From Candidatus Gastranaerophilales bacterium (GTDB lineage: Bacteria > Cyanobacteriota > Vampirovibrionia > Gastranaerophilales > Gastranaerophilaceae), in the NCBI GenBank assembly GCA_947589425.1, contig CANQAV010000003.1:38186-102185 (forward strand): a stretch of DNA of 64,000 bases, written 5' to 3'. The notes below the pieces were generated by a model that made no database searches, had not been told where the DNA came from, and saw nothing but the letters and a program-made list of their open reading frames with translations. Positions 9,629 to 62,594 of this stretch are shown piece by piece (positions within the stretch are counted from its first letter, which is position 1; each line of letters opens with the position of its first letter). The translations under genes and the position numbers were made by a program.

Positions 9629-11092
9629 ATGACATCCGGTGAAATTAAGCTTACGGGGGCGGAACTCATTAGAAACAATATTGCAGAAATAGTTGGAAAC
9701 GCTGCAAATGATAATAGTAATGACTTGGTGGAACAAGGGCTAAAGTGTTTTACTATTGATGAAAAAGATGAAAATGAAAATGTTTCCGTTGATTTTGTAA
9801 ATTCTCTAGGTGATTTTAAAAAGCTAATGGAAGACAATGAAATTTCGTTTGATGATGGACAATATATGGATTTTAGCACAAAATTGTATGAGATTGGGCA
9901 GGCTGACGGCAAAGACGGTTTTTCCAAAGAAGACCTTGAAAAAACATACACATTTGTTGCATCCAAAGCTGAAGACAAAACTGCAGATGAAGCTACAGAT
10001 GAAACTAAAACTGCAGATGAAACTAAAACTGCAGATGAAACTAAAACTGCAACGACTAATGCCGAAACTACAAGTGCAGACCCGGCATCTTCCGCATCGG
10101 AAACAAATAAAAACATGCCGGAATACTTTAAAGGCAGCGCCGTGCAAAATGACAAAATTAAACAAGATGAAAACGGACAGTATTATATTAATGTTGAGCC
10201 ATGGGACGACAACGGCGACAGCTTAAACTGCGTTTCAAGAATTATAAGAAATGTATACGGGGTAAGTCTTTATTCAGAAGAAGGTAAAGATATATACAAT
10301 AAATTAAGAGAACAAAACCCGAATGTATTTCTTAACGAAGATCCGGACTCATACTATATCTACGATAATGACAGGATTAATCTTGTTGATATAAACGCTG
10401 AAAGCAAAAAAACCGAAGATGCTCAAAAAACAGATTCAACAGATTCAACAGATGAAACAACCAAAACCGAAGATGCTCAAAAAACAGATTCAACAGATTC
10501 AACAGATGAAACTGAAGACGTTCAAACCACGCAAACCACGGAAACCGAAAGTGAACTTGAAACCTTATTTAACGAAAACCTATCTCAATATATTGACGAA
10601 AACGGCGACATAGAAGACGTCGAAGGATTTATGAGTGCAACAATAAATGGGCGCAACATGAGCGGAAGCGATTACGTAGAGCTTGCCGGCATATACAATA
10701 AAAAATACAACAAAAGCCTTGTACAACAAATAATTATAAATGAACAAAAGGGAGGCAGAGATAATATATACGAAATAGCAAGCAAACTTGTATATAGCGC
10801 CTATGAAGGCAACTCTAAAGCAATAGATTTAATGTATAATGAAATTAGAAATTGCGTTTACGGAAGCAAAGATAACAACGAAAACTATACAAATTTCATT
10901 ACCGGCATTCTAAGCAGCACTAATCTCGTTCAAAACACGCAAATTTTAGAAAACATATTTGAAAAATGTCCCGACGGATCTAAAAGAAATTTGGTAAGCA
11001 AGATTGAAGATATGATAAATAACTCTTCTGTATTTGACGAAAAAACAAAAAAGAATTATATTTCAAAAATTAAAGATGCGGCAGGCATTTAA
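9629..11092 (+). CDS. Acidic Thr/Asp/Glu-rich repeat protein, function unknown
   Basis: 487 aa. RBS GAAAGG upstream. Two internal tandem-repeat tracts. No obvious signal peptide. Followed by a strong terminator. Confidence 0.6.
   Translation: MTSGEIKLTGAELIRNNIAEIVGNAANDNSNDLVEQGLKCFTIDEKDENENVSVDFVNSLGDFKKLMEDNEISFDDGQYMDFSTKLYEIGQADGKDGFSKEDLEKTYTFVASKAEDKTADEATDETKTADETKTADETKTATTNAETTSADPASSASETNKNMPEYFKGSAVQNDKIKQDENGQYYINVEPWDDNGDSLNCVSRIIRNVYGVSLYSEEGKDIYNKLREQNPNVFLNEDPDSYYIYDNDRINLVDINAESKKTEDAQKTDSTDSTDETTKTEDAQKTDSTDSTDETEDVQTTQTTETESELETLFNENLSQYIDENGDIEDVEGFMSATINGRNMSGSDYVELAGIYNKKYNKSLVQQIIINEQKGGRDNIYEIASKLVYSAYEGNSKAIDLMYNEIRNCVYGSKDNNENYTNFITGILSSTNLVQNTQILENIFEKCPDGSKRNLVSKIEDMINNSSVFDEKTKKNYISKIKDAAGI
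9998..10051 (+). repeat. In-frame 18-bp tandem repeat x3 (gatgaaactaaaactgca = DETKTA)
   Basis: Three exact consecutive copies read directly, preceded by degenerate copies (ADEATDE). Confidence 0.9.
10409..10512 (+). repeat. In-frame 54-bp tandem repeat x2 (KTEDAQKTDSTDSTDET)
   Basis: aaaaccgaagatgctcaaaaaacagattcaacagattcaacagatgaaac occurs twice with a 54-bp period. Each copy contains a gattcaaca doublet. Confidence 0.9.
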
Positions 11093-34277: not shown

Positions 34278-35396
34278 ATGGATAAAAAAATAAAAATAGC
34301 TCTTGTATTCGGCACACGCCCCGAAGCGATTAAAATGTGTCCTTTGGTTAAAAGATTAAAAGCAAATTCAAAATTTGAAACACTTACCATTGTAACGGCA
34401 CAGCACAGACAAATGCTTGACAGCGTGCTTGAACTGTTTAAGATTACCCCCGACTATGATTTAAATTTAATGAAACCCAATCAAAATCTTTGGGAATTAT
34501 CTTCCGAAATACTTTTAAAAACAAAAGAAGTATTTGAAAAAGAAAAACCCGATTTGGTTTTGGTGCACGGAGATACAACAACGGCAAGCATGAGTGCTTT
34601 AAGCGCATATTATTCCAAAATGAAAATAGGGCATGTCGAAGCGGGATTAAGGACGTTTGACAAAAATTATCCTTTCCCCGAAGAAATAAACAGGGTAATC
34701 GTAGATAGTGTATGTGATTTTATGTTCGCTCCGACAGAGCGTTCAATTGAAAATCTTAAAAATTCGGGAATTGCAAAAGGCATTTATAGAACCGGAAACA
34801 CGGTAATTGATGCACTTTTATATGTTGTTCAAAATAAAAGTTATGATTTAAGTTTTATCGGGCTGAATTCAAATTTAAAAACAATTCTTTTAACATCCCA
34901 CAGAAGGGAAAATTTTGGAAAACCGCTTGAGAATATATGTTATGCAATTAAAGAACTGGTTGAAAAAAACAAAGATATTCAAGTGGTTTATCCGATGCAT
35001 TTAAATCCCAATGTAAGAAATACTGTTATGCCCATACTTAAAGAGGTTGAAAGGGTTAAATTAATTGAGCCTTTGGATTATGTTCCGTTTTGTTTTTTGA
35101 TGAAACAATCTCACATAATTTTAACGGATTCCGGCGGAGTTCAAGAAGAAGCACCTTCTTTGGGAGTTCCCGTTTTTGTTTTGAGAGATGAAACCGAACG
35201 TCCCGAAGCTCTTGAATTTGGGGGAGTTAAACTCGTCGGCGCTCATAAAGAAAAAATTGTATCAAATGTTCAAACTCTGCTTGATGACAAAAAAGAATAC
35301 GACAAAATGTCAAAAGCAATAAATCCTTATGGGGACGGAAGAGCTTGCGAATATATTGAAAATATTATTGAAGAGCATTTTCTTAACCGTCAATAA
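34278..35396 (+). CDS. wecB: UDP-N-acetylglucosamine 2-epimerase (non-hydrolysing)
   Basis: 372 aa. Motifs FGTRPEAIKM, VHGDTTT, HVEAGLRT, TDSGGVQEEAPSLGVPV and NPYGDG. Confidence 0.92.
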   Translation: MDKKIKIALVFGTRPEAIKMCPLVKRLKANSKFETLTIVTAQHRQMLDSVLELFKITPDYDLNLMKPNQNLWELSSEILLKTKEVFEKEKPDLVLVHGDTTTASMSALSAYYSKMKIGHVEAGLRTFDKNYPFPEEINRVIVDSVCDFMFAPTERSIENLKNSGIAKGIYRTGNTVIDALLYVVQNKSYDLSFIGLNSNLKTILLTSHRRENFGKPLENICYAIKELVEKNKDIQVVYPMHLNPNVRNTVMPILKEVERVKLIEPLDYVPFCFLMKQSHIILTDSGGVQEEAPSLGVPVFVLRDETERPEALEFGGVKLVGAHKEKIVSNVQTLLDDKKEYDKMSKAINPYGDGRACEYIENIIEEHFLNRQ

Positions 35397-36750
35397 CGGG
35401 TTTCATTTTGTTTTTGAATTTGGTGGTTGCGCCGAAGAACAATAAATCTACTTTTCCCGTGGGGCCGTTACGCTGTTTTTCAACAAGAATTTGAGCTTTG
35501 TTTTTATATTCGGGATTTTCTTTATCGTAATATTCATCCCTGTGAACAAACATAACAACATCAGCATCCTGCTCAATTGCGCCTGAGTCCCTTAAGTCGG
35601 AAAGCATCGGACGTTTGTCGTTTCTTTCTTCCGTTTTTCTTGATAATTGAGAAAGGGCAATTATAGGAATATTTAATTCACGTGCAATTGACTTAAGACC
35701 CCTTGAAATACCCGCTATGGCTTGATTTCTGTCCATTGTGGATTTATCTTCAATTAACTGCAGATAATCTATTATTATAAGCCCCAAATCGGGATATTTT
35801 GTTTTAATTCTCCTTGCTTTGGCACGAATATCCGATAGGGTGACTCCCGAAGAATCATCTATCAATATCGGTGCTTCATGGAGCTTATTCATAACTTCAA
35901 ATATTTGCTGCCATTCTGATTCGTTTAATTCTCCCGTCCTTGCTCTTTGTGCATTAATTTCGGCTTCGGAACACAAAATACGCTGTGTTAATTGAGATGA
36001 AGCCATTTCCAAAGAAAATATCAAAACAGGTATATGCTGTACAATTCCGATATTTTGTGCGATGTTAAGCGCAAAAGCCGTTTTACCCATTGAAGGACGT
36101 GCCGCAAGAATAATTAAATCCGATTTTTGAAAACCCGCAAGCATTGCATCAAGGTCATAAAACCCGCTCGGTACACCGGTATATGAGCCTTTATTGTTAT
36201 AACGATATTCCAATTGCTCAATTGTTTCCATTAATAAATTTGTAATGGGCTGAACGTCTTTTGATGACTTTTGCTGGGCAATTTCAAAAATTGTTTTTTC
36301 GGCTATTTCAAGGGATGTGTCGGCTTCGGGATTTTTAAAAACTTCTTCAATAATTGTTGTGCCGGCATTTATCAGCTTCCTTTTAAGAGCATTTTCTTTG
36401 ATTATTTGAGCATAGTATTCAATATTGGATGATAAAACGGTATCTAAACCCAATTCGCTTAAATATTCAACACCGCCTATATCATCAAGCTTATTTCTTG
36501 AGCTGAAATATTCGGCAATTGAAAGTCCGTCAATGGGTTTATTTTGATTATTAAGAGTAAAGATTGCTTCATAAATTAATTTATTTTGAGGAGAATAGAA
36601 AAAATCAGGCTCCAAAATTTCAATAACCCTGTTAACACTTTCCGGATTAATCAAGATTGAGCCCAAAACCGCACATTCCGCTTCCAAATTATGCGGGGGG
36701 ACATGCTTAATTGAAGATACCGTTTGCGGTGGTTTAAACGCCATTTTCAT
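35383..36750 (-). CDS. dnaB: Replicative DNA helicase
   Basis: 455 aa. N-terminal PPHNLEAECAVLGSIL; Walker A ARPSMGKTAFALN; also IIDYLQL and LSQLSR. No intein. Confidence 0.95.
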   Translation of the reverse strand: MKMAFKPPQTVSSIKHVPPHNLEAECAVLGSILINPESVNRVIEILEPDFFYSPQNKLIYEAIFTLNNQNKPIDGLSIAEYFSSRNKLDDIGGVEYLSELGLDTVLSSNIEYYAQIIKENALKRKLINAGTTIIEEVFKNPEADTSLEIAEKTIFEIAQQKSSKDVQPITNLLMETIEQLEYRYNNKGSYTGVPSGFYDLDAMLAGFQKSDLIILAARPSMGKTAFALNIAQNIGIVQHIPVLIFSLEMASSQLTQRILCSEAEINAQRARTGELNESEWQQIFEVMNKLHEAPILIDDSSGVTLSDIRAKARRIKTKYPDLGLIIIDYLQLIEDKSTMDRNQAIAGISRGLKSIARELNIPIIALSQLSRKTEERNDKRPMLSDLRDSGAIEQDADVVMFVHRDEYYDKENPEYKNKAQILVEKQRNGPTGKVDLLFFGATTKFKNKMKPVIDG

Positions 36751-36939
36751 TCCTGCAAAATAACAAACTTTTCATGGCTATTCTACCATGGATATTATAC
36801 TTTAGTTTAGCAAAATTCTAACTTATTTATAATTCTTTATAATACCTAAAAATTCTAATATGAGTATATGCATGAATTGCCCCATTAATTATGCAAAATA
36901 AAAAAGATATGTAAATCTAACTGGTGATGGCAATACAGT

Positions 36940-36970
36940 GGGTTAAACCATAAGTTTAACCCCTTTTTTT
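36940..36970 (+). terminator. Orphan canonical intrinsic terminator on the plus strand
   Basis: GGGTTAAAC-CATAA-GTTTAACCC, then C and seven T. There is no plus-strand CDS upstream (dnaB is on the minus strand). Confidence 0.7.
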
Positions 36971-37092
36971 ATCCCGAGCCAAATGAGTCTTAGTTCGCAG
37001 GGCGAACTTGACGAACGACGGCGAGGGCATAAGAGTGCGAAGCCCGTGACGGCAGACCGTTGAGGTCTGGCGGACAGGGCGAAGACATTTCT
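36971..37092. repeat. 122-bp G+C-rich repeat, copy A
   Basis: Identical base-for-base to 37129-37250 by my reading. Contains hairpins AGTTCGC-AGG-GCGAACT and CAGACC-GTTGA-GGTCTG. Confidence 0.9.
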
Positions 37093-37128
37093 ATGGCGAC
37101 GTGGAAATCTCTGATTTCCTCAGGAGCA

Positions 37129-37250
37129 ATCCCGAGCCAAATGAGTCTTAGTTCGCAGGGCGAACTTGACGAACGACGGCGAGGGCATAAGAGTGCGAAG
37201 CCCGTGACGGCAGACCGTTGAGGTCTGGCGGACAGGGCGAAGACATTTCT
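37129..37250. repeat. 122-bp G+C-rich repeat, copy B
   Basis: Perfect copy of 36971-37092. The two copies are separated by a 36-bp spacer (37093-37128) that contains the hairpin GGAAATC-TCTG-ATTTCC. Confidence 0.9.
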
Positions 37251-37419
37251 GAATCCGAATGAAGCGAGCTTTAGTGCGAGGGCACTTAGCGAAAACTTGA
37301 CTGTAAATTCCCAAAAAGCGCATCTTAAATTTAGTACACTAACACCGGCAAACATTTTACATATTTTAAAAATTTTACCCCTACCCATACAATAATTAAG
37401 AAATTGTTTATTTTTTTAA

Positions 37420-39330
<1,911 letters not shown>

Positions 39331-60528: not shown

Positions 60529-60646
60529 TTATCGAAAGCAAAGTGAAACAATTTGCAATATTTTCACGTGCACTTAAGCACCTTGCCATGTCGCAATAAA
60601 CTCAAACAAGCTTCATAAACCTTCTTTTTTACCTTCTACCCCTCAG

Positions 60647-60667
60647 ACCCTGAAATAAATTCAGGGT
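60647..60667. repeat. Hairpin module ACCCTGAA-N5-TTCAGGGT, preceded by CTACCCCTCAG
   Basis: Read directly. The same module recurs at 62389-62409. Confidence 0.8.
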
Positions 60668-60726
60668 GACAGCATACAAGGATGTCGGTATTCTAACACT
60701 CAACTACACATGTCATGCTGAATTCA

Positions 60727-60806
60727 TTTCAGCATCTGACCAAGCCTCGGAATACTCAATAATGTTGCAAACCATGTTCCTTTCATTCCCTACCCCTCAG
60801 ACCCTG
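60727..60806. repeat. 80-nt interspersed repeat block, left copy
   Basis: tttcagcatctGaccaagcctcggaatactcaataatgttgcaaaccatgttcctttcattccctacccctcagaccctg. Differs from 62315-62394 at one base (G/T). A second shared 24-nt block lies at 60841-60864 and 62452-62475. Confidence 0.9.
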
Positions 60807-60992
60807 TAAACACCTCGGCTTCGCCTACAGATACAGGCTCACAAGGCTCGTACCTCGCCTGTTCATTTTGTTACAATCTTCGACAAAGCTCAGATGTTCA
60901 CTTTTGTAAAATCCTGCTCCCGCAACCAATTAAATTCAAAAACCATTCCATACGGGAGGGTTTTTTATTATAGAGCTTGCTATCGCTACATT

Positions 60993-61506: not shown

Positions 61507-61680
61507 ATGACTTTTGACAGAAAACTAATCCGAAATGGCAATGGTTGGGCAATGACTCTCAATTCAACTATATTGGAATTTTTGGATGTAAATCCTGAAA
61601 TTAATATGGTAAAATATACTCTTTATAATAATATGCTTGTTATTAAAAAGAGTAGTAAAAAAGTAGAGATAAAAAAATAA
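61507..61680 (+). CDS. AbrB/MazE/SpoVT-like small DNA-binding protein, paralog 1 (57 aa; not in the ORF track)
   Basis: My own translation gives MTFDRKLIRNGNGWAMTLNSTILEFLDVNPEINMVKYTLYNNMLVIKKSSKKVEIKK. Clearly paralogous to the ORF at 61770-61949. Confidence 0.6.
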   Translation: MTFDRKLIRNGNGWAMTLNSTILEFLDVNPEINMVKYTLYNNMLVIKKSSKKVEIKK

Positions 61681-61769: not shown

Positions 61770-61949
61770 ATGGCACTTGACAGAAAATTAATCCGAAACG
61801 GCAATGGATGGGCATTGACAATAAATTCAACTATTTTAGGCTTGTTGGATGTAGACCCTGAAGTCAATATGGTTAGATATAACGTTGAAAATGACAAATT
61901 GATTATAACAAAGAGCGAAAAAACGGTAGAAAAGAAGACTGTTGATTAA
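61770..61949 (+). CDS. AbrB/MazE/SpoVT-like small DNA-binding protein, paralog 2 (59 aa)
   Basis: MALDRKLIRNGNGWALTINSTILGLLDVDPEVNMVRYNVENDKLIITKSEK.... AGGAA lies 8 nt upstream of ATG 61770. The ORF-track start at 61734 is an extension. Confidence 0.65.
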   Translation: MALDRKLIRNGNGWALTINSTILGLLDVDPEVNMVRYNVENDKLIITKSEKTVEKKTVD

Positions 61950-62187
61950 AGCTGTGCAATATATAAATTTAAGAAAATTCATCAAGAAAAGGCGCCTAGA
62001 GAACGATATTTCTCTTAATTCTTTTGCATTTGAAAATGATATCGACCCTGCGATTTTATCCAGAATTGAGAACTTGAAGCAAAACATTAAATTGAATATT
62101 TTAGAAAAAATTGCGCAAGGTTTTAGCGCAACTCCTGCACAATTTTTGACGGAGTTTGAAAATGATGATGGTGTTTTTGATAAATAA
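61942..62187 (+). CDS. XRE-family helix-turn-helix regulator
   Basis: LRKFIKKRRLENDISLNSFAFENDIDPAILSRIENLKQNIKLNILEKIAQGF is a Cro/C1-type HTH. The TTG start overlaps the stop of the previous gene; GTG 61954 is an alternative start. Confidence 0.7.
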   Translation: MIKAVQYINLRKFIKKRRLENDISLNSFAFENDIDPAILSRIENLKQNIKLNILEKIAQGFSATPAQFLTEFENDDGVFDK

Positions 62188-62314
62188 ATTTTTTGTTTAG
62201 AGAATTTAATTTTGAAGGCAAAAATATTTAGGGGTAGATGTTTAATGGTTTCAATTGTCACGCTGAACTGACTGGAAAATAGCGTGCATCGTGATTTTCT
62301 GTCCTCTGTGAGTG

Positions 62315-62394
62315 TTTCAGCATCTTACCAAGCCTCGGAATACTCAATAATGTTGCAAACCATGTTCCTTTCATTCCCTACCCCTCAGACCCTG
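62315..62394. repeat. 80-nt interspersed repeat block, right copy
   Basis: Same orientation as 60727-60806, with one mismatch. Followed by hairpin 62389-62409 and two more TTCAGGG(T/C)GAC words. Confidence 0.9.
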
Positions 62395-62594
62395 AAACGA
62401 GTTCAGGGTGACAAAGGAAAGGGTGATGTGATTAATGCATACTTCAGGGCGACAAGGCTCGTACCTCGCCTGTTCGCTTTGTAAAATTCAGGGTGACGGG
62501 GTAGAGCAACCTCTTTCGTTTGCACTTAATAAATTAAACTTTACTTTCCTAAAACCTGCATTCTTCCTTACACCAAGAAGGACAACCCTTTCAA

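What the first reader, a model, noticed from the sequence alone, without database searches (positions are those of the whole stretch)
36971..37250. Perfect 122-bp G+C-rich direct repeat (two copies, 36-bp spacer) in the dnaB-dnaK divergent intergenic region
The dnaB-dnaK gap is 732 bp, unusually long for this tightly packed window. In it, a 122-bp unit (atcccgagccaaatgag...gggcgaagacatttct) occurs at 36971-37092 and again, base-for-base identical by my reading, at 37129-37250. The unit is visibly much more G+C-rich than the A+T-rich surroundings. It contains stable hairpins (AGTTCGC-AGG-GCGAACT; CAGACC-GTTGA-GGTCTG) and internal sub-repeats (TTCGCCCTG twice on the minus strand). It starts on the base immediately after an orphan terminator. 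It has neither CRISPR geometry nor an ORF with credible composition. It shares short G+C-rich words (CAGGGCGA, GGCTTCGC) with the non-coding modules at 60.6 and 62.3 kb. Identity of the two copies implies either a very recent duplication or active homogenisation. Candidate explanations are a tandem pair of structured sRNAs, a MITE/REP-like element, or a protein-binding array that controls dnaK or dnaB.
Basis: seen in the sequence. Interest (0 to 1): 0.7.

Follow-up and report, generated by a model that had tools for sequence, protein, structure and literature searches.

The report
Modular hairpin repeat array, Gastranaerophilales
The perfect 122-base duplication is real, and it is two tandem units of a previously undescribed family of hairpin-rich intergenic repeats scattered through gut Melainabacteria genomes, comparable to the BOX or REP repeats of other bacteria rather than a dnaK-specific switch.

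Summary
A 122-nt unit occurs twice, base for base, at 36971-37092 and 37129-37250, inside the most G+C-rich island of a 34% G+C window. The organism is a Gastranaerophilales (Melainabacteria) bacterium.

The unit is not specific to the dnaB-dnaK gap. Translating a spurious ORF over it recovered related copies at seven other loci in several species. These lie beside rpsR, rpsO, 16S rRNA, SRP RNA, tRNA-Leu and a flagellar gene, singly or in arrays of up to about 1 kb.

Each unit holds three hairpin modules. The core is a 39-nt hairpin with a GWUGA loop and conserved internal loops. Its stems covary (6 of 12 pairs change on both sides, 98.8% of cells paired).

The 36-nt "spacer" is the third module of the family, a variable-stem hairpin between GCGACGT and CAGGAGC. 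It is not a spacer.

Two loci place the array between a stop codon and the terminator, in sense orientation. The + strand always folds better than the - strand. Three assemblies of the same strain carry one unit, so copy number varies or was collapsed.

Best reading: a new BOX/REP-like modular interspersed repeat that acts, if at all, as structured RNA in transcripts. No Rfam family or paper matches it.

The parts
36940..36970 (+). Terminator-like hairpin (GGGTTAAAC-CATAA-GTTTAACCC) with a T-run. It forms the left boundary of the array. No + strand gene lies upstream.
   Evidence: terminator scan; inverted repeat I2. The stretch 36805-36970 folds no better than shuffles (z -0.86).
36971..37092 (+). 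Copy 1 of the perfect 122-nt repeat. It comprises the tail CCCGAG of a preceding module, module M1 with hairpin H1, and module M2 with core hairpin H2.
   Evidence: The + strand folds at -50.8 kcal/mol (z -4.24). The - strand folds at -41.1 (z -2.87).
36992..37008 (+). H1 hairpin, AGTTCGC-AGG-GCGAACT. The stem varies across the family while the flanks stay as TTAG...CTTAG or CTTGAC.
   Evidence: Variant stems at the same position are AGTTTGC/GCAAACT (L022), AGCCA/TGGCT (L023) and AGTCC/GGACT versus ACTCC/GGAGT (L022, D4).
37042..37080 (+). H2 core hairpin of copy 1. It reads P1 GCCC/GGGC, internal loop GUGA/GACA, P2 CG/CG with a bulged G on each side, P3 CAGACC/GGUCUG, and loop GUUGA.
   Evidence: Model R1 hits 37028-37102 at 99.5 bits. 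Covariation is shown.
37093..37128 (+). It holds the conserved ATGGCGACGT (37093-37102), variable-stem hairpin H3 GGAAATC-TCT-GATTTCC (37103-37119) and the conserved CAGGAGC (37121-37127).
   Evidence: There are eight M3 instances with six different perfect stems between the same flanks. The window's version recurs in L023, from another sample.
37129..37250 (+). Copy 2 of the 122-nt repeat (M1 + M2). H1 lies at 37150-37166 and H2 at 37200-37238. No M3 module follows it.
   Evidence: Model R1 hits 37186-37260 at 83.9 bits.
37251..37305 (+). Degenerate partial third unit. It is M1-like (CCGAATGAAGCGAGCTTTAG followed by hairpin AGTGC-GAGG-GCACT at 37273-37286) and marks the end of the G+C-rich island.
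   Evidence: The local alignment to M1 is only marginal (10 of 300 shuffles reach it). The hairpin and flanks fit the H1 pattern and resemble L018 units.
36990..37388 (-). A 132-aa ORF called as a protein in the public record (P0241). It reads the two copies in different frames and is judged spurious.
   Evidence: It has no Pfam domain. Its only relatives are ORFs lying over other copies of the repeat.
37391..37482 (+). Conserved dnaK promoter and leader. It is not part of the repeat and marks where orthologous sequence resumes.
   Evidence: BLAST alignments of L015 and L016 to the window start at 37391.

Best explanation
The region is a short tandem array, in module order M1-M2-M3-M1-M2-M1', of an undescribed family of modular, hairpin-rich interspersed repeats found in Gastranaerophilales (Melainabacteria) genomes.

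**Shown**
- The family is dispersed, sitting at unrelated intergenic sites in several species, singly or in arrays of up to about 1 kb.
- Each unit has three hairpins. Stems change by compensatory substitutions while loops and flanks stay fixed.
- The core H2 keeps its GWUGA loop, its GUGA/GACA internal loop and its bulged Gs.
- Arrays contain perfect local duplicates.
- Near-identical genomes differ by exactly one 158-nt period at this locus.

**Inferred**
- The perfect 122-nt identity comes from a recent gain or loss of one period by unequal recombination or slippage within the array. This is how boxB numbers change in pneumococcal BOX elements.
- The one-copy form is a deletion, or an assembly collapse, of the two-copy form. 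The 36 nt lost with it are a canonical family module, so they are unlikely to be filler.
- The element acts as RNA on the + strand, the strand of dnaK, when it is co-transcribed. It would form stable 3'-UTR or leader structures that block 3'-to-5' exonucleases, attenuate read-through, or bind a protein at H2.
- At this locus it is more likely a tolerated insertion with at most a modulating effect than a dedicated dnaK regulator.
- How the family spreads is unknown.
For: **Family and dispersal**
- The pseudo-ORF search found P0242 and P0243, which led to loci L017 and L018.
- The 23-mer core scan of metagenomes found L019, L020 and L021.
- A profile of the pseudo-ORFs gave 16 cluster representatives among 1.84 billion proteins. 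This led to L022 and L023.
- The neighbours are rpsR (L017), 16S rRNA (L019), SRP RNA (L020), a flagellar gene (L021), tRNA-Leu (L022) and rpsO (L023).
- L022 is another species, with dnaK 84% identical at nucleotide level.

**Structure**
- Model R1 finds 14 + 2 copies.
- On alignment A6, 98.8% of cells are paired, 6 of 12 pairs change on both sides, 0 of 500 shuffles reach the observed values, and slid controls give 23-44% paired.
- P1 occurs as GCCC/GGGC, GCUC/GAGC, GCAC/GUGC and GUCC/GGAC. P3 occurs as CAGACC/GGUCUG, CAGUCC/GGACUG and CAAUGC/GCAUUG.
- H3 has six different perfect stems between fixed flanks.

**RNA and strand**
- L023 has the order rpsO stop codon, array, intrinsic terminator, in sense orientation. 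L021 has the same layout.
- The + strand folds 16-34% more stably than the - strand at all 8 loci.

**Copy number**
- L001, L002 and L003 are 99.9-100% identical to the window over 3-5.7 kb but hold one unit and no M3.
- The L014 contig breaks inside the unit.
- Other arrays hold perfect duplicates of 84 and 49 nt.

**Analogy**
- BOX elements are modular. Their tandem boxB number varies between strains, ORFs get called over them, and 3' adducts are proposed to impede exonucleases (PMC3049150).
- REPs act as 3'-UTR terminators and stabilisers (bioRxiv 10.64898/2026.03.23.713779).
Against: - There are no expression data, so transcription and strand are inferred only from layout and folding.
- At this locus the array lies after a terminator and upstream of the dnaK promoter, not inside a defined UTR. 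It may not be transcribed here at all.
- The sample is small, 16 core copies with several from the same arrays. The covariation counts were made on an alignment fitted to the model.
- Most double-sided changes come from L022 and L023.
- Density looks low. There is one locus in this 64-kb window and none in about 75 kb of relatives' DNA.
- A 20-mer from the H1 module, the part that varies between copies, had only two chance hits among 185,579 species genomes. This says little about the core, because the conserved 23-mer was never scanned there.
- Hairpin covariation would also fit a single-stranded DNA function.
- The one-copy contigs come from assemblies at about 3x coverage, which could have collapsed the loop.
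Confidence: 0.65

Rival explanations
1. Selfish mobile DNA acting at the DNA level. The hairpins, especially H2 with its fixed loop, would be recognition or cleavage sites for a single-strand DNA transposase (IS200/IS605, RAYT-like) or another recombinase. The arrays would be products of its activity and have no host function.
For: - The distribution is patchy between loci and species, and the element is absent from orthologous sites in relatives.
- An island invariant in most copies sits amid variable sequence.
- Local perfect duplicates occur and modules are shuffled.
- REPs are cleaved by RAYTs at hairpin-adjacent tags (PMC3733652).
Against: - No transposase, reverse transcriptase or integrase was found among the Pfam-scanned ORFs around the window locus and around 55.6-63.8 kb, nor in the precomputed Pfam gene tables of the fetched loci.
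- No terminal inverted repeats were found.
- No GTAG or CGTC tag sits in the REP position.
- Sense orientation relative to flanking transcription, and the consistent + strand folding advantage, point to RNA.
Confidence: 0.2
2. A tandem pair of independent small RNA genes (trans-acting sRNAs), each unit being its own transcript.
For: - The fold is stable and covarying.
- Multicopy tandem sRNA genes are known in other bacteria (own knowledge).
Against: - No promoter-like or terminator-like site lies inside a unit.
- In L023 and L021 the units lie inside a 3' UTR ahead of the gene's terminator.
- Module number and order differ between loci.
Confidence: 0.08
3. A locus-specific cis-regulator of dnaK or dnaB, such as a leader RNA, an RNA thermometer or an operator array.
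For: - It lies in the divergent dnaB-dnaK gap and is co-oriented with dnaK.
- BOX modules can alter expression of downstream genes (PMC3049150).
Against: - The unit is absent upstream of dnaK in species with 94-95% identical DnaK, which keep only the conserved promoter.
- The same unit occurs at seven unrelated loci.
- The array ends about 85 nt before the conserved promoter block.
Confidence: 0.04
4. The duplication is an assembly artefact and the true genome has one unit.
For: - Three independent contigs of the same strain show one unit.
- One contig breaks inside the unit.
Against: - The extra 36 nt are unique in the window and form a canonical family module in the canonical position. A misjoin would not invent that.
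- The two-copy form is what the 149-kb public contig carries (P0241).
- The one-copy contigs have about 3x coverage, where a 158-nt loop is easily dropped.
Confidence: 0.1
5. A real protein-coding gene (the 132-aa ORF P0241), or a CRISPR-like repeat-spacer-repeat.
For: - An ORF is annotated and has "homologues".
- The geometry is repeat, 36 nt, repeat.
Against: - The period of 158 is not a multiple of 3, so the two copies are read in different frames.
- There is no Pfam domain, and conservation follows base-pairing rather than codons.
- The "spacer" is conserved in another species.
- No cas genes were seen among the ORFs scanned with Pfam.
Confidence: 0.02

Closest known systems
BOX elements of Streptococcus pneumoniae and S. 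suis (boxA, boxB in tandem, boxC)
   Same: - It is a composite, modular intergenic repeat of about 50-nt hairpin-forming modules.
- The number of tandem internal modules is variable and changes between strains.
- It is clustered with other repeat types.
- ORFs are spuriously formed over large elements.
- It is transcribed with neighbouring genes and proposed to act through RNA structure (PMC3049150).
   Different: - No sequence relationship is known, and the host phylum is different.
- No boxA/boxC-type terminal modules with inverted-repeat ends were found.
- It is G+C-rich in an A+T-rich genome.
- The core hairpin has conserved loop nucleotides with covarying stems.
REP sequences and BIMEs (repetitive extragenic palindromes, bacterial interspersed mosaic elements)
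   Same: - The hairpins are short, G+C-rich and extragenic.
- They often lie between a stop codon and the terminator.
- They form mosaic clusters.
- Stems are maintained by compensatory changes.
- Proposed roles are mRNA stabilisation and termination.
   Different: - No GTAG or CGTC tag sits in the defining position.
- Modules are all in direct orientation, not alternating as in BIMEs.
- No RAYT gene was seen.
- Density is apparently much lower.
- The unit of about 155 nt with three different hairpins is far larger than one REP.
MIRU-type intergenic minisatellites (VNTR loci)
   Same: It is an intergenic tandem unit whose copy number differs between near-identical genomes. Here that is 1 versus 2 periods of 158 nt.
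   Different: MIRUs are defined in mycobacteria and are not structured three-hairpin modules (own knowledge). This family also occurs as single dispersed copies (L019, L021).

Membership tests
REP (GTAG- or CGTC-tagged palindromic repeats) | An unpaired GTAG or CGTC tetranucleotide at one end of a 20-40 nt palindrome (PMC3733652) | tested here: not met
   The flanks are GCGACGT and CAGGAGC for H3, TTAG and CTTAG for H1, and GUGA and GACA inside H2. The 5' flank of H3 reads GACGT, not CGTC. CGTC appears only 3' of the hairpin on the opposite strand.
REP (GTAG- or CGTC-tagged palindromic repeats) | High copy number (often over 100 per genome), with a RAYT transposase gene flanked by REPs for the GTAG type | not testable with these tools
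   Only 64 kb of this genome is held. It contains one locus, and no Y1 transposase was found among the ORFs scanned. The whole genome could not be searched.
BIME | REPs regularly spaced in alternating orientation | tested here: not met
   All model R1 hits within an array lie on the same strand. The modules are direct repeats.
BOX elements | Composite of distinct modules with a variable tandem number of an internal module, varying between strains | tested here: met
   Modules M1, M2 and M3 occur in varying number and order. The same strain shows 1 or 2 periods. This is a likeness of behaviour, not of sequence.
BOX elements | Sequence homology to boxA, boxB or boxC, with terminal inverted repeats and target-site duplication | tested here: not met
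   No terminal inverted repeats were found at single-copy elements or at the array ends. Homology to the box modules was not tested directly because no model was available. Target duplication is inconclusive because no empty site was found.
MITE | Terminal inverted repeats and target-site duplications flanking a short non-coding element | tested here: not met
   One search found no terminal inverted repeats in L021, L019 or the window. Target-site duplications could not be assessed.
CRISPR array | Short repeats of 23-50 nt, unique spacers, and usually cas genes | tested here: not met
   The repeat is 122 nt. The "spacer" recurs in L023 and is a conserved module. No cas domains were found among the neighbours scanned.
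Any Rfam 15 RNA family | A covariance-model score at or above the family's gathering threshold | tested here: not met
   Rfam gave 0 hits for the window. The related loci hit only tRNA, SSU rRNA and SRP RNA. E-value mode gave only chance-level hits over the arrays.
Structured RNA element (generic) | Conserved secondary structure supported by compensatory changes, with a strand preference | tested here: met
   One search shows 6 of 12 pairs changing on both sides and 98.8% of cells paired, against 23-44% when the partners are slid. One search shows the + strand more stable at 8 of 8 loci. Caveats are the small, partly non-independent sample and an alignment fitted to the model.

The most novel reading that the evidence does not exclude
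The core hairpin H2 (fixed GWUGA loop, tandem G-A-type internal loop GUGA/GACA, bulged Gs, freely covarying stems) could be a dedicated RNA recognition module for an unknown protein in Melainabacteria. Arrays of it would sit in the UTRs and flanks of highly expressed translation-related genes (rpsO, rpsR, 16S rRNA, SRP RNA, tRNA-Leu, dnaK). By expanding and contracting, they would form a heritable, rapidly tunable post-transcriptional dial. That would make it a new RNA-protein regulatory system rather than junk repeats.
Probability: 0.15. Interest if true: 0.65.

Novelty: new member of a known kind. Interest (0 to 1): 0.4.

Why it matters
- Melainabacteria are uncultured gut relatives of cyanobacteria, and their non-coding genome is essentially uncharted.
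- This gives a concrete, searchable definition of one of their repeat families: a covariance model of the core plus the module grammar.
- It explains a class of spurious "hypothetical proteins" in public records.
- It flags a locus where near-identical strains differ by one repeat period, which is useful for strain typing and as a warning for assembly.
- If the core hairpin proves to be a protein-binding RNA module placed next to translation genes, it would be a new handle on post-transcriptional control in this lineage.

Tried and rejected
**Searches that found nothing useful**
- Rfam, on the whole window and on the related arrays, at gathering score and in E-value mode, found nothing.
- An exact DnaB look-up with the ORF start from the ORF listing failed. 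The recorded protein starts two residues later (then).
- A genome-contig scan with a 20-mer from H1 gave only two chance hits, in Lysobacter and Tardiphaga. In hindsight the H1 stem is the variable part, and the invariant 23-mer of H2 would have been the better pattern.
- The first metagenome scan used a 34-mer that included variable bases and found nothing. The second, with the 23-mer, found three loci.
- Viral contigs gave 0 for the unit, the spacer and the core.
- Phages, plasmids and E. coli genomes gave only chance hits by blastn.
- A literature search for Melainabacteria or Gastranaerophilales repeats returned nothing relevant.

**Analyses that did not work or did not hold**
- Synteny comparison through DnaB homologues failed because dnaB is not next to dnaK in relatives.
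- Direct similarity of the unit to the 60.6 and 62.3 kb modules was not significant.
- A MAFFT alignment of the H3 module was unusable for pair counting, partly because I gave wrong coordinates. A scripted table was used instead.
- Alignment A4 contained a padded base in L019. It was discarded and rebuilt as A5.

**Ideas rejected**
- CIRCE/HrcA operator. There is no TTAGCACTC-N9-GAGTGCTAA (read from the sequence).
- attC site. The unit is not one long imperfect palindrome.
- Group II intron fragment inserted after a terminator. No Rfam intron hit was found.
- C/D-box or K-turn sRNA. The only support is a chance-level hit at E = 4.7.

Full report
**1.
The window carries a 122-nt unit at 36971-37092 and again at 37129-37250. 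The two copies are 100% identical and separated by 36 nt. They lie in the 732-nt gap between dnaB (35383-36750, minus strand) and dnaK (ATG at 37483).

The stretch 36967-37293 reaches 65% G+C in a window that averages 34.3%, and it is the richest island present. A terminator-like hairpin with a T-run ends on the base before copy 1. A 122-nt perfect repeat cannot be chance.

**2. The organism.**
The closest named relatives of DnaB and DnaK are from Candidatus Gastranaerophilales and "Cyanobacteria bacterium SIG27". That places the organism among the non-photosynthetic Melainabacteria. The exact DnaK, the exact DnaB and the ORF over the repeat are all recorded on a 149,303-nt public contig.

**3. 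It is not a dnaK or dnaB device.**
- Species with 83-86% identical DnaB have a flagellin gene upstream of dnaB, not dnaK.
- Species with 94-95% identical DnaK have only 100-145 nt upstream. That stretch holds a conserved promoter block, which the window also has from 37391 onward, and no G+C-rich unit.
- The unit is therefore an addition to a lineage-specific gene junction and lies outside the conserved promoter.

**4. Finding the family.**
- DNA searches with parts of the unit against phages, plasmids, viral contigs and 185,579 species genomes gave nothing but chance hits.
- The breakthrough came from the 132-aa minus-strand ORF over the repeat. This ORF reads the two copies in two different frames because 158 is not a multiple of 3.
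- Searching the ORF as a protein returned itself (P0241) and two other "proteins", P0242 and P0243. Their contigs, L018 and L017, carry tandem copies of a related unit.
- These copies revealed an invariant 27-nt core, GGCAGACCGTTGAGGTCTGGCGGACAG.
- A 23-mer of that core found three more loci in JGI metagenomes: L019, L020 and L021.
- A profile of the three pseudo-ORFs found 16 cluster representatives among 1.84 billion proteins. Two of them led to L022 and L023.

**5. Where the copies sit.**

| Locus | Position of the element |
|---|---|
| L017 | Upstream of rpsR. It comes from the same sample, at the same coverage, as a contig of the window's own strain, and its genes are recorded on a 344-kb contig of an NCBI assembly |
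| L019 | About 190 nt upstream of a 16S rRNA gene |
| L020 | Just downstream of an SRP RNA gene |
| L021 | Between the stop codon of a flagellar gene and its terminator |
| L022 | A roughly 1-kb array between a radical-SAM gene and the promoter of tRNA-Leu |
| L023 | A two-unit array between the stop codon of rpsO and its intrinsic terminator |

L022 belongs to another species, with dnaK 84% identical at nucleotide level. Wherever orientation is informative, the element points the same way as the flanking transcription unit (5 of 5 loci).

**6. Anatomy.**
In the orientation of the window's + strand, a full unit is about 155 nt and has three modules.
- **M1.** ...CCCGAG...AATGAG-TTAG-[H1 stem-loop]-CTTAG/CTTGAC....
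- **M2.** GAGGGCATAAGAGTGCGAAG-[H2]-CG-AGACATTTCTATG. H2 reads P1 (4 bp), internal loop GUGA/GACA, P2 (2 bp) with a bulged G on each side, P3 (4-6 bp) and loop GWUGA.
- **M3.** GCGACGT-[H3 stem-loop]-N-CAGGAGC, followed by the CCCGAG that opens the next unit.

After copy 2 there is no M3. A degenerate M1-like piece follows instead (37251-37305). The window array is therefore M1-M2-M3-M1-M2-M1'.

**7. Structure is conserved, sequence is not.**
- A covariance model of the 75-nt core (R1) finds 14 copies in 159 kb of held DNA and two more in L023. It finds nothing else in the window even with filters off.
- On the model alignment, 98.8% of cells form standard pairs and 6 of 12 pairs change on both sides. 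No shuffle out of 500 reaches the observed values, and sliding the partners drops pairing to 23-44%.
- P1 occurs as GCCC/GGGC, GCUC/GAGC, GCAC/GUGC and GUCC/GGAC.
- P3 occurs as CAGACC/GGUCUG, CAGUCC/GGACUG and CAAUGC/GCAUUG, while the loop stays GUUGA or GAUGA.
- L022 also holds further hairpins with the same GTTGA loop on quite different stems.
- H3 shows six different perfect stems between the same flanks in eight instances.
- H1 shows AGTTCGC/GCGAACT, AGTTTGC/GCAAACT, AGCCA/TGGCT, AGTCC/GGACT and ACTCC/GGAGT.
- Caveats: the sample is small, several copies share an array, and the alignment was fitted to the model.

**8. Strand and likely level of action.**
- The full 158-nt unit folds into three domains at -63 kcal/mol (z -3.75).
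- At all eight loci the + strand folds 16-34% more stably than its complement.
- Two loci place the array inside a 3' UTR in sense orientation.
- Together these favour a role as + strand RNA when co-transcribed. It would be a stable 3' structure of the kind proposed for BOX 3' adducts (PMC3049150) and shown for a model REP as a terminator and stabiliser (bioRxiv 10.64898/2026.03.23.713779).
- This step is inference, because no expression data were available.
- In the window the array follows a terminator and precedes the dnaK promoter, so it may be transcribed only by read-through, or not at all.

**9. The perfect identity and the copy-number difference.**
- Three contigs from other samples (L001, L002, L003) are 99.9-100% identical to the window over 3-5.7 kb. 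They carry one unit, with no M3 and no second copy, so they are exactly one 158-nt period shorter.
- A fourth contig breaks inside the unit.
- The missing 36 nt are a canonical family module in the canonical place, and they recur nearly unchanged in L023. The two-copy form is therefore authentic and not a misjoin.
- The one-copy form is either a deletion by recombination between the two 122-nt repeats or a collapse in assemblies of about 3x coverage. I cannot tell which without reads.
- Perfect local duplicates are typical of the family. L022 has 84-nt and 49-nt perfect pairs and a 59-nt pair at 98%. In contrast, L018's neighbouring units are only 79% alike.
- Arrays therefore turn over by gain and loss of periods, as boxB arrays do.

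**10. What it is not.**
- It is not a known RNA family.
- It is not CRISPR. The repeat is 122 nt, the "spacer" is conserved, and no cas domains were found among the scanned neighbours.
- It is not a MITE by the usual criteria, because no terminal inverted repeats were found.
- It is not a tagged REP, because no GTAG or CGTC tag sits in position.
- It is not a BIME, because all modules are in direct orientation.
- It is not a protein. The frames differ between copies, there is no Pfam domain, and conservation follows base-pairing.
- No transposase, reverse transcriptase or integrase was found near the window locus or in the fetched loci.

**11. Relation to the 60.6 and 62.3 kb modules.**
The unit itself has no significant similarity to them. 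However, their 30-nt hairpin, TCAGACCCTGAAA..TTCAGGGTGACA, and the word CACCTCGGCTTCGCCT occur inside the L017 array and beside the L019 element. These genomes therefore hold several repeat modules that cluster together. This again resembles pneumococcal repeats.

**12. Verdict.**
The finding is real and has been explained in kind. It is two tandem units of a new, lineage-specific, modular hairpin repeat, and its closest analogues are BOX elements and REP/BIME clusters. The family appears undescribed: no Rfam match, and no paper in the searchable library.

Its means of spread and any host function remain open. The most interesting open possibility is that the core hairpin is a specific protein-binding RNA module placed next to translation-related genes. 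Interest is moderate. It would not surprise a specialist in bacterial repeats, but it is a clean new family in an uncultured phylum, with good structural evidence and a strain-level length polymorphism.

Noticed in passing
window 60560-60960 and 62230-62540: Two non-coding modules share an 83-nt direct repeat at 97.6% identity (60727-60809 and 62315-62397). They flank about 1.5 kb that holds a NIF-like phosphatase ORF, two paralogous small ORFs (61507-61680 and about 61771-61949, with no Pfam hit) and an HTH_3 ORF (61942-62187). This looks like a small island bracketed by repeats. Its 30-nt hairpin also occurs in arrays of the family studied here.
   Followed up: partly
window 36751-36970: A clean intrinsic-terminator-like hairpin (36940-36970) has no + strand gene before it. 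A weak promoter-like site lies at 36769-36798. The stretch 36805-36970 folds no better than shuffles (z -0.86). Whether a small transcript ends here is unknown.
   Followed up: partly
window 37391-37482; L015 2522-2616; L016 2904-3000: The block AATTAAGAAATTGTTTATTTTTTTAAKAWTTTGAAAAAACRGTGTTAT and the leader upstream of dnaK are conserved across species whose dnaK is only about 84% identical. This is probably the real dnaK promoter or operator.
   Followed up: no
window 36990-37388 (minus strand): The public record annotates a 132-aa protein (P0241) over the repeat. About a dozen other "proteins" in public collections (P0242-P0256) are likewise translations of copies of this repeat and are probably spurious gene calls.
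   Followed up: yes
L020 550-804 and 1100-1384: An SRP RNA gene (RF01854, 60.6 bits) is followed by the core element. After that comes a different G+C-rich module of about 190 nt, present twice (GCCGAAGGCGGTTGCTCCGCCACG...GGCGTAAGCCGGTGCGGAAACGGCTTGTGATGAACAAGACG).
   Followed up: no
L021 66-133: The 3' arm of the variable hairpin H3 (TAGTCCCTCA) is complementary to an arm of the terminator that follows it, so the two could pair as an alternative structure. No such relation was seen at the window or in L023.
   Followed up: no
L022 215-1200 (minus strand): Several hairpins keep the loop GTTGA on unrelated stems (GGAGC/GCTC, ACAAGC/GCTTGG, GCAAGT/ACTTGC, GGCTTGC/GCAAGCC). This suggests the loop, not the stem, is the conserved feature of a wider hairpin class.
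   Followed up: partly
window 9970-10546: Perfect tandem repeats of 18, 9 and 54 nt lie inside the ORF 9629-11092, pointing to a repetitive protein segment.
   Followed up: no
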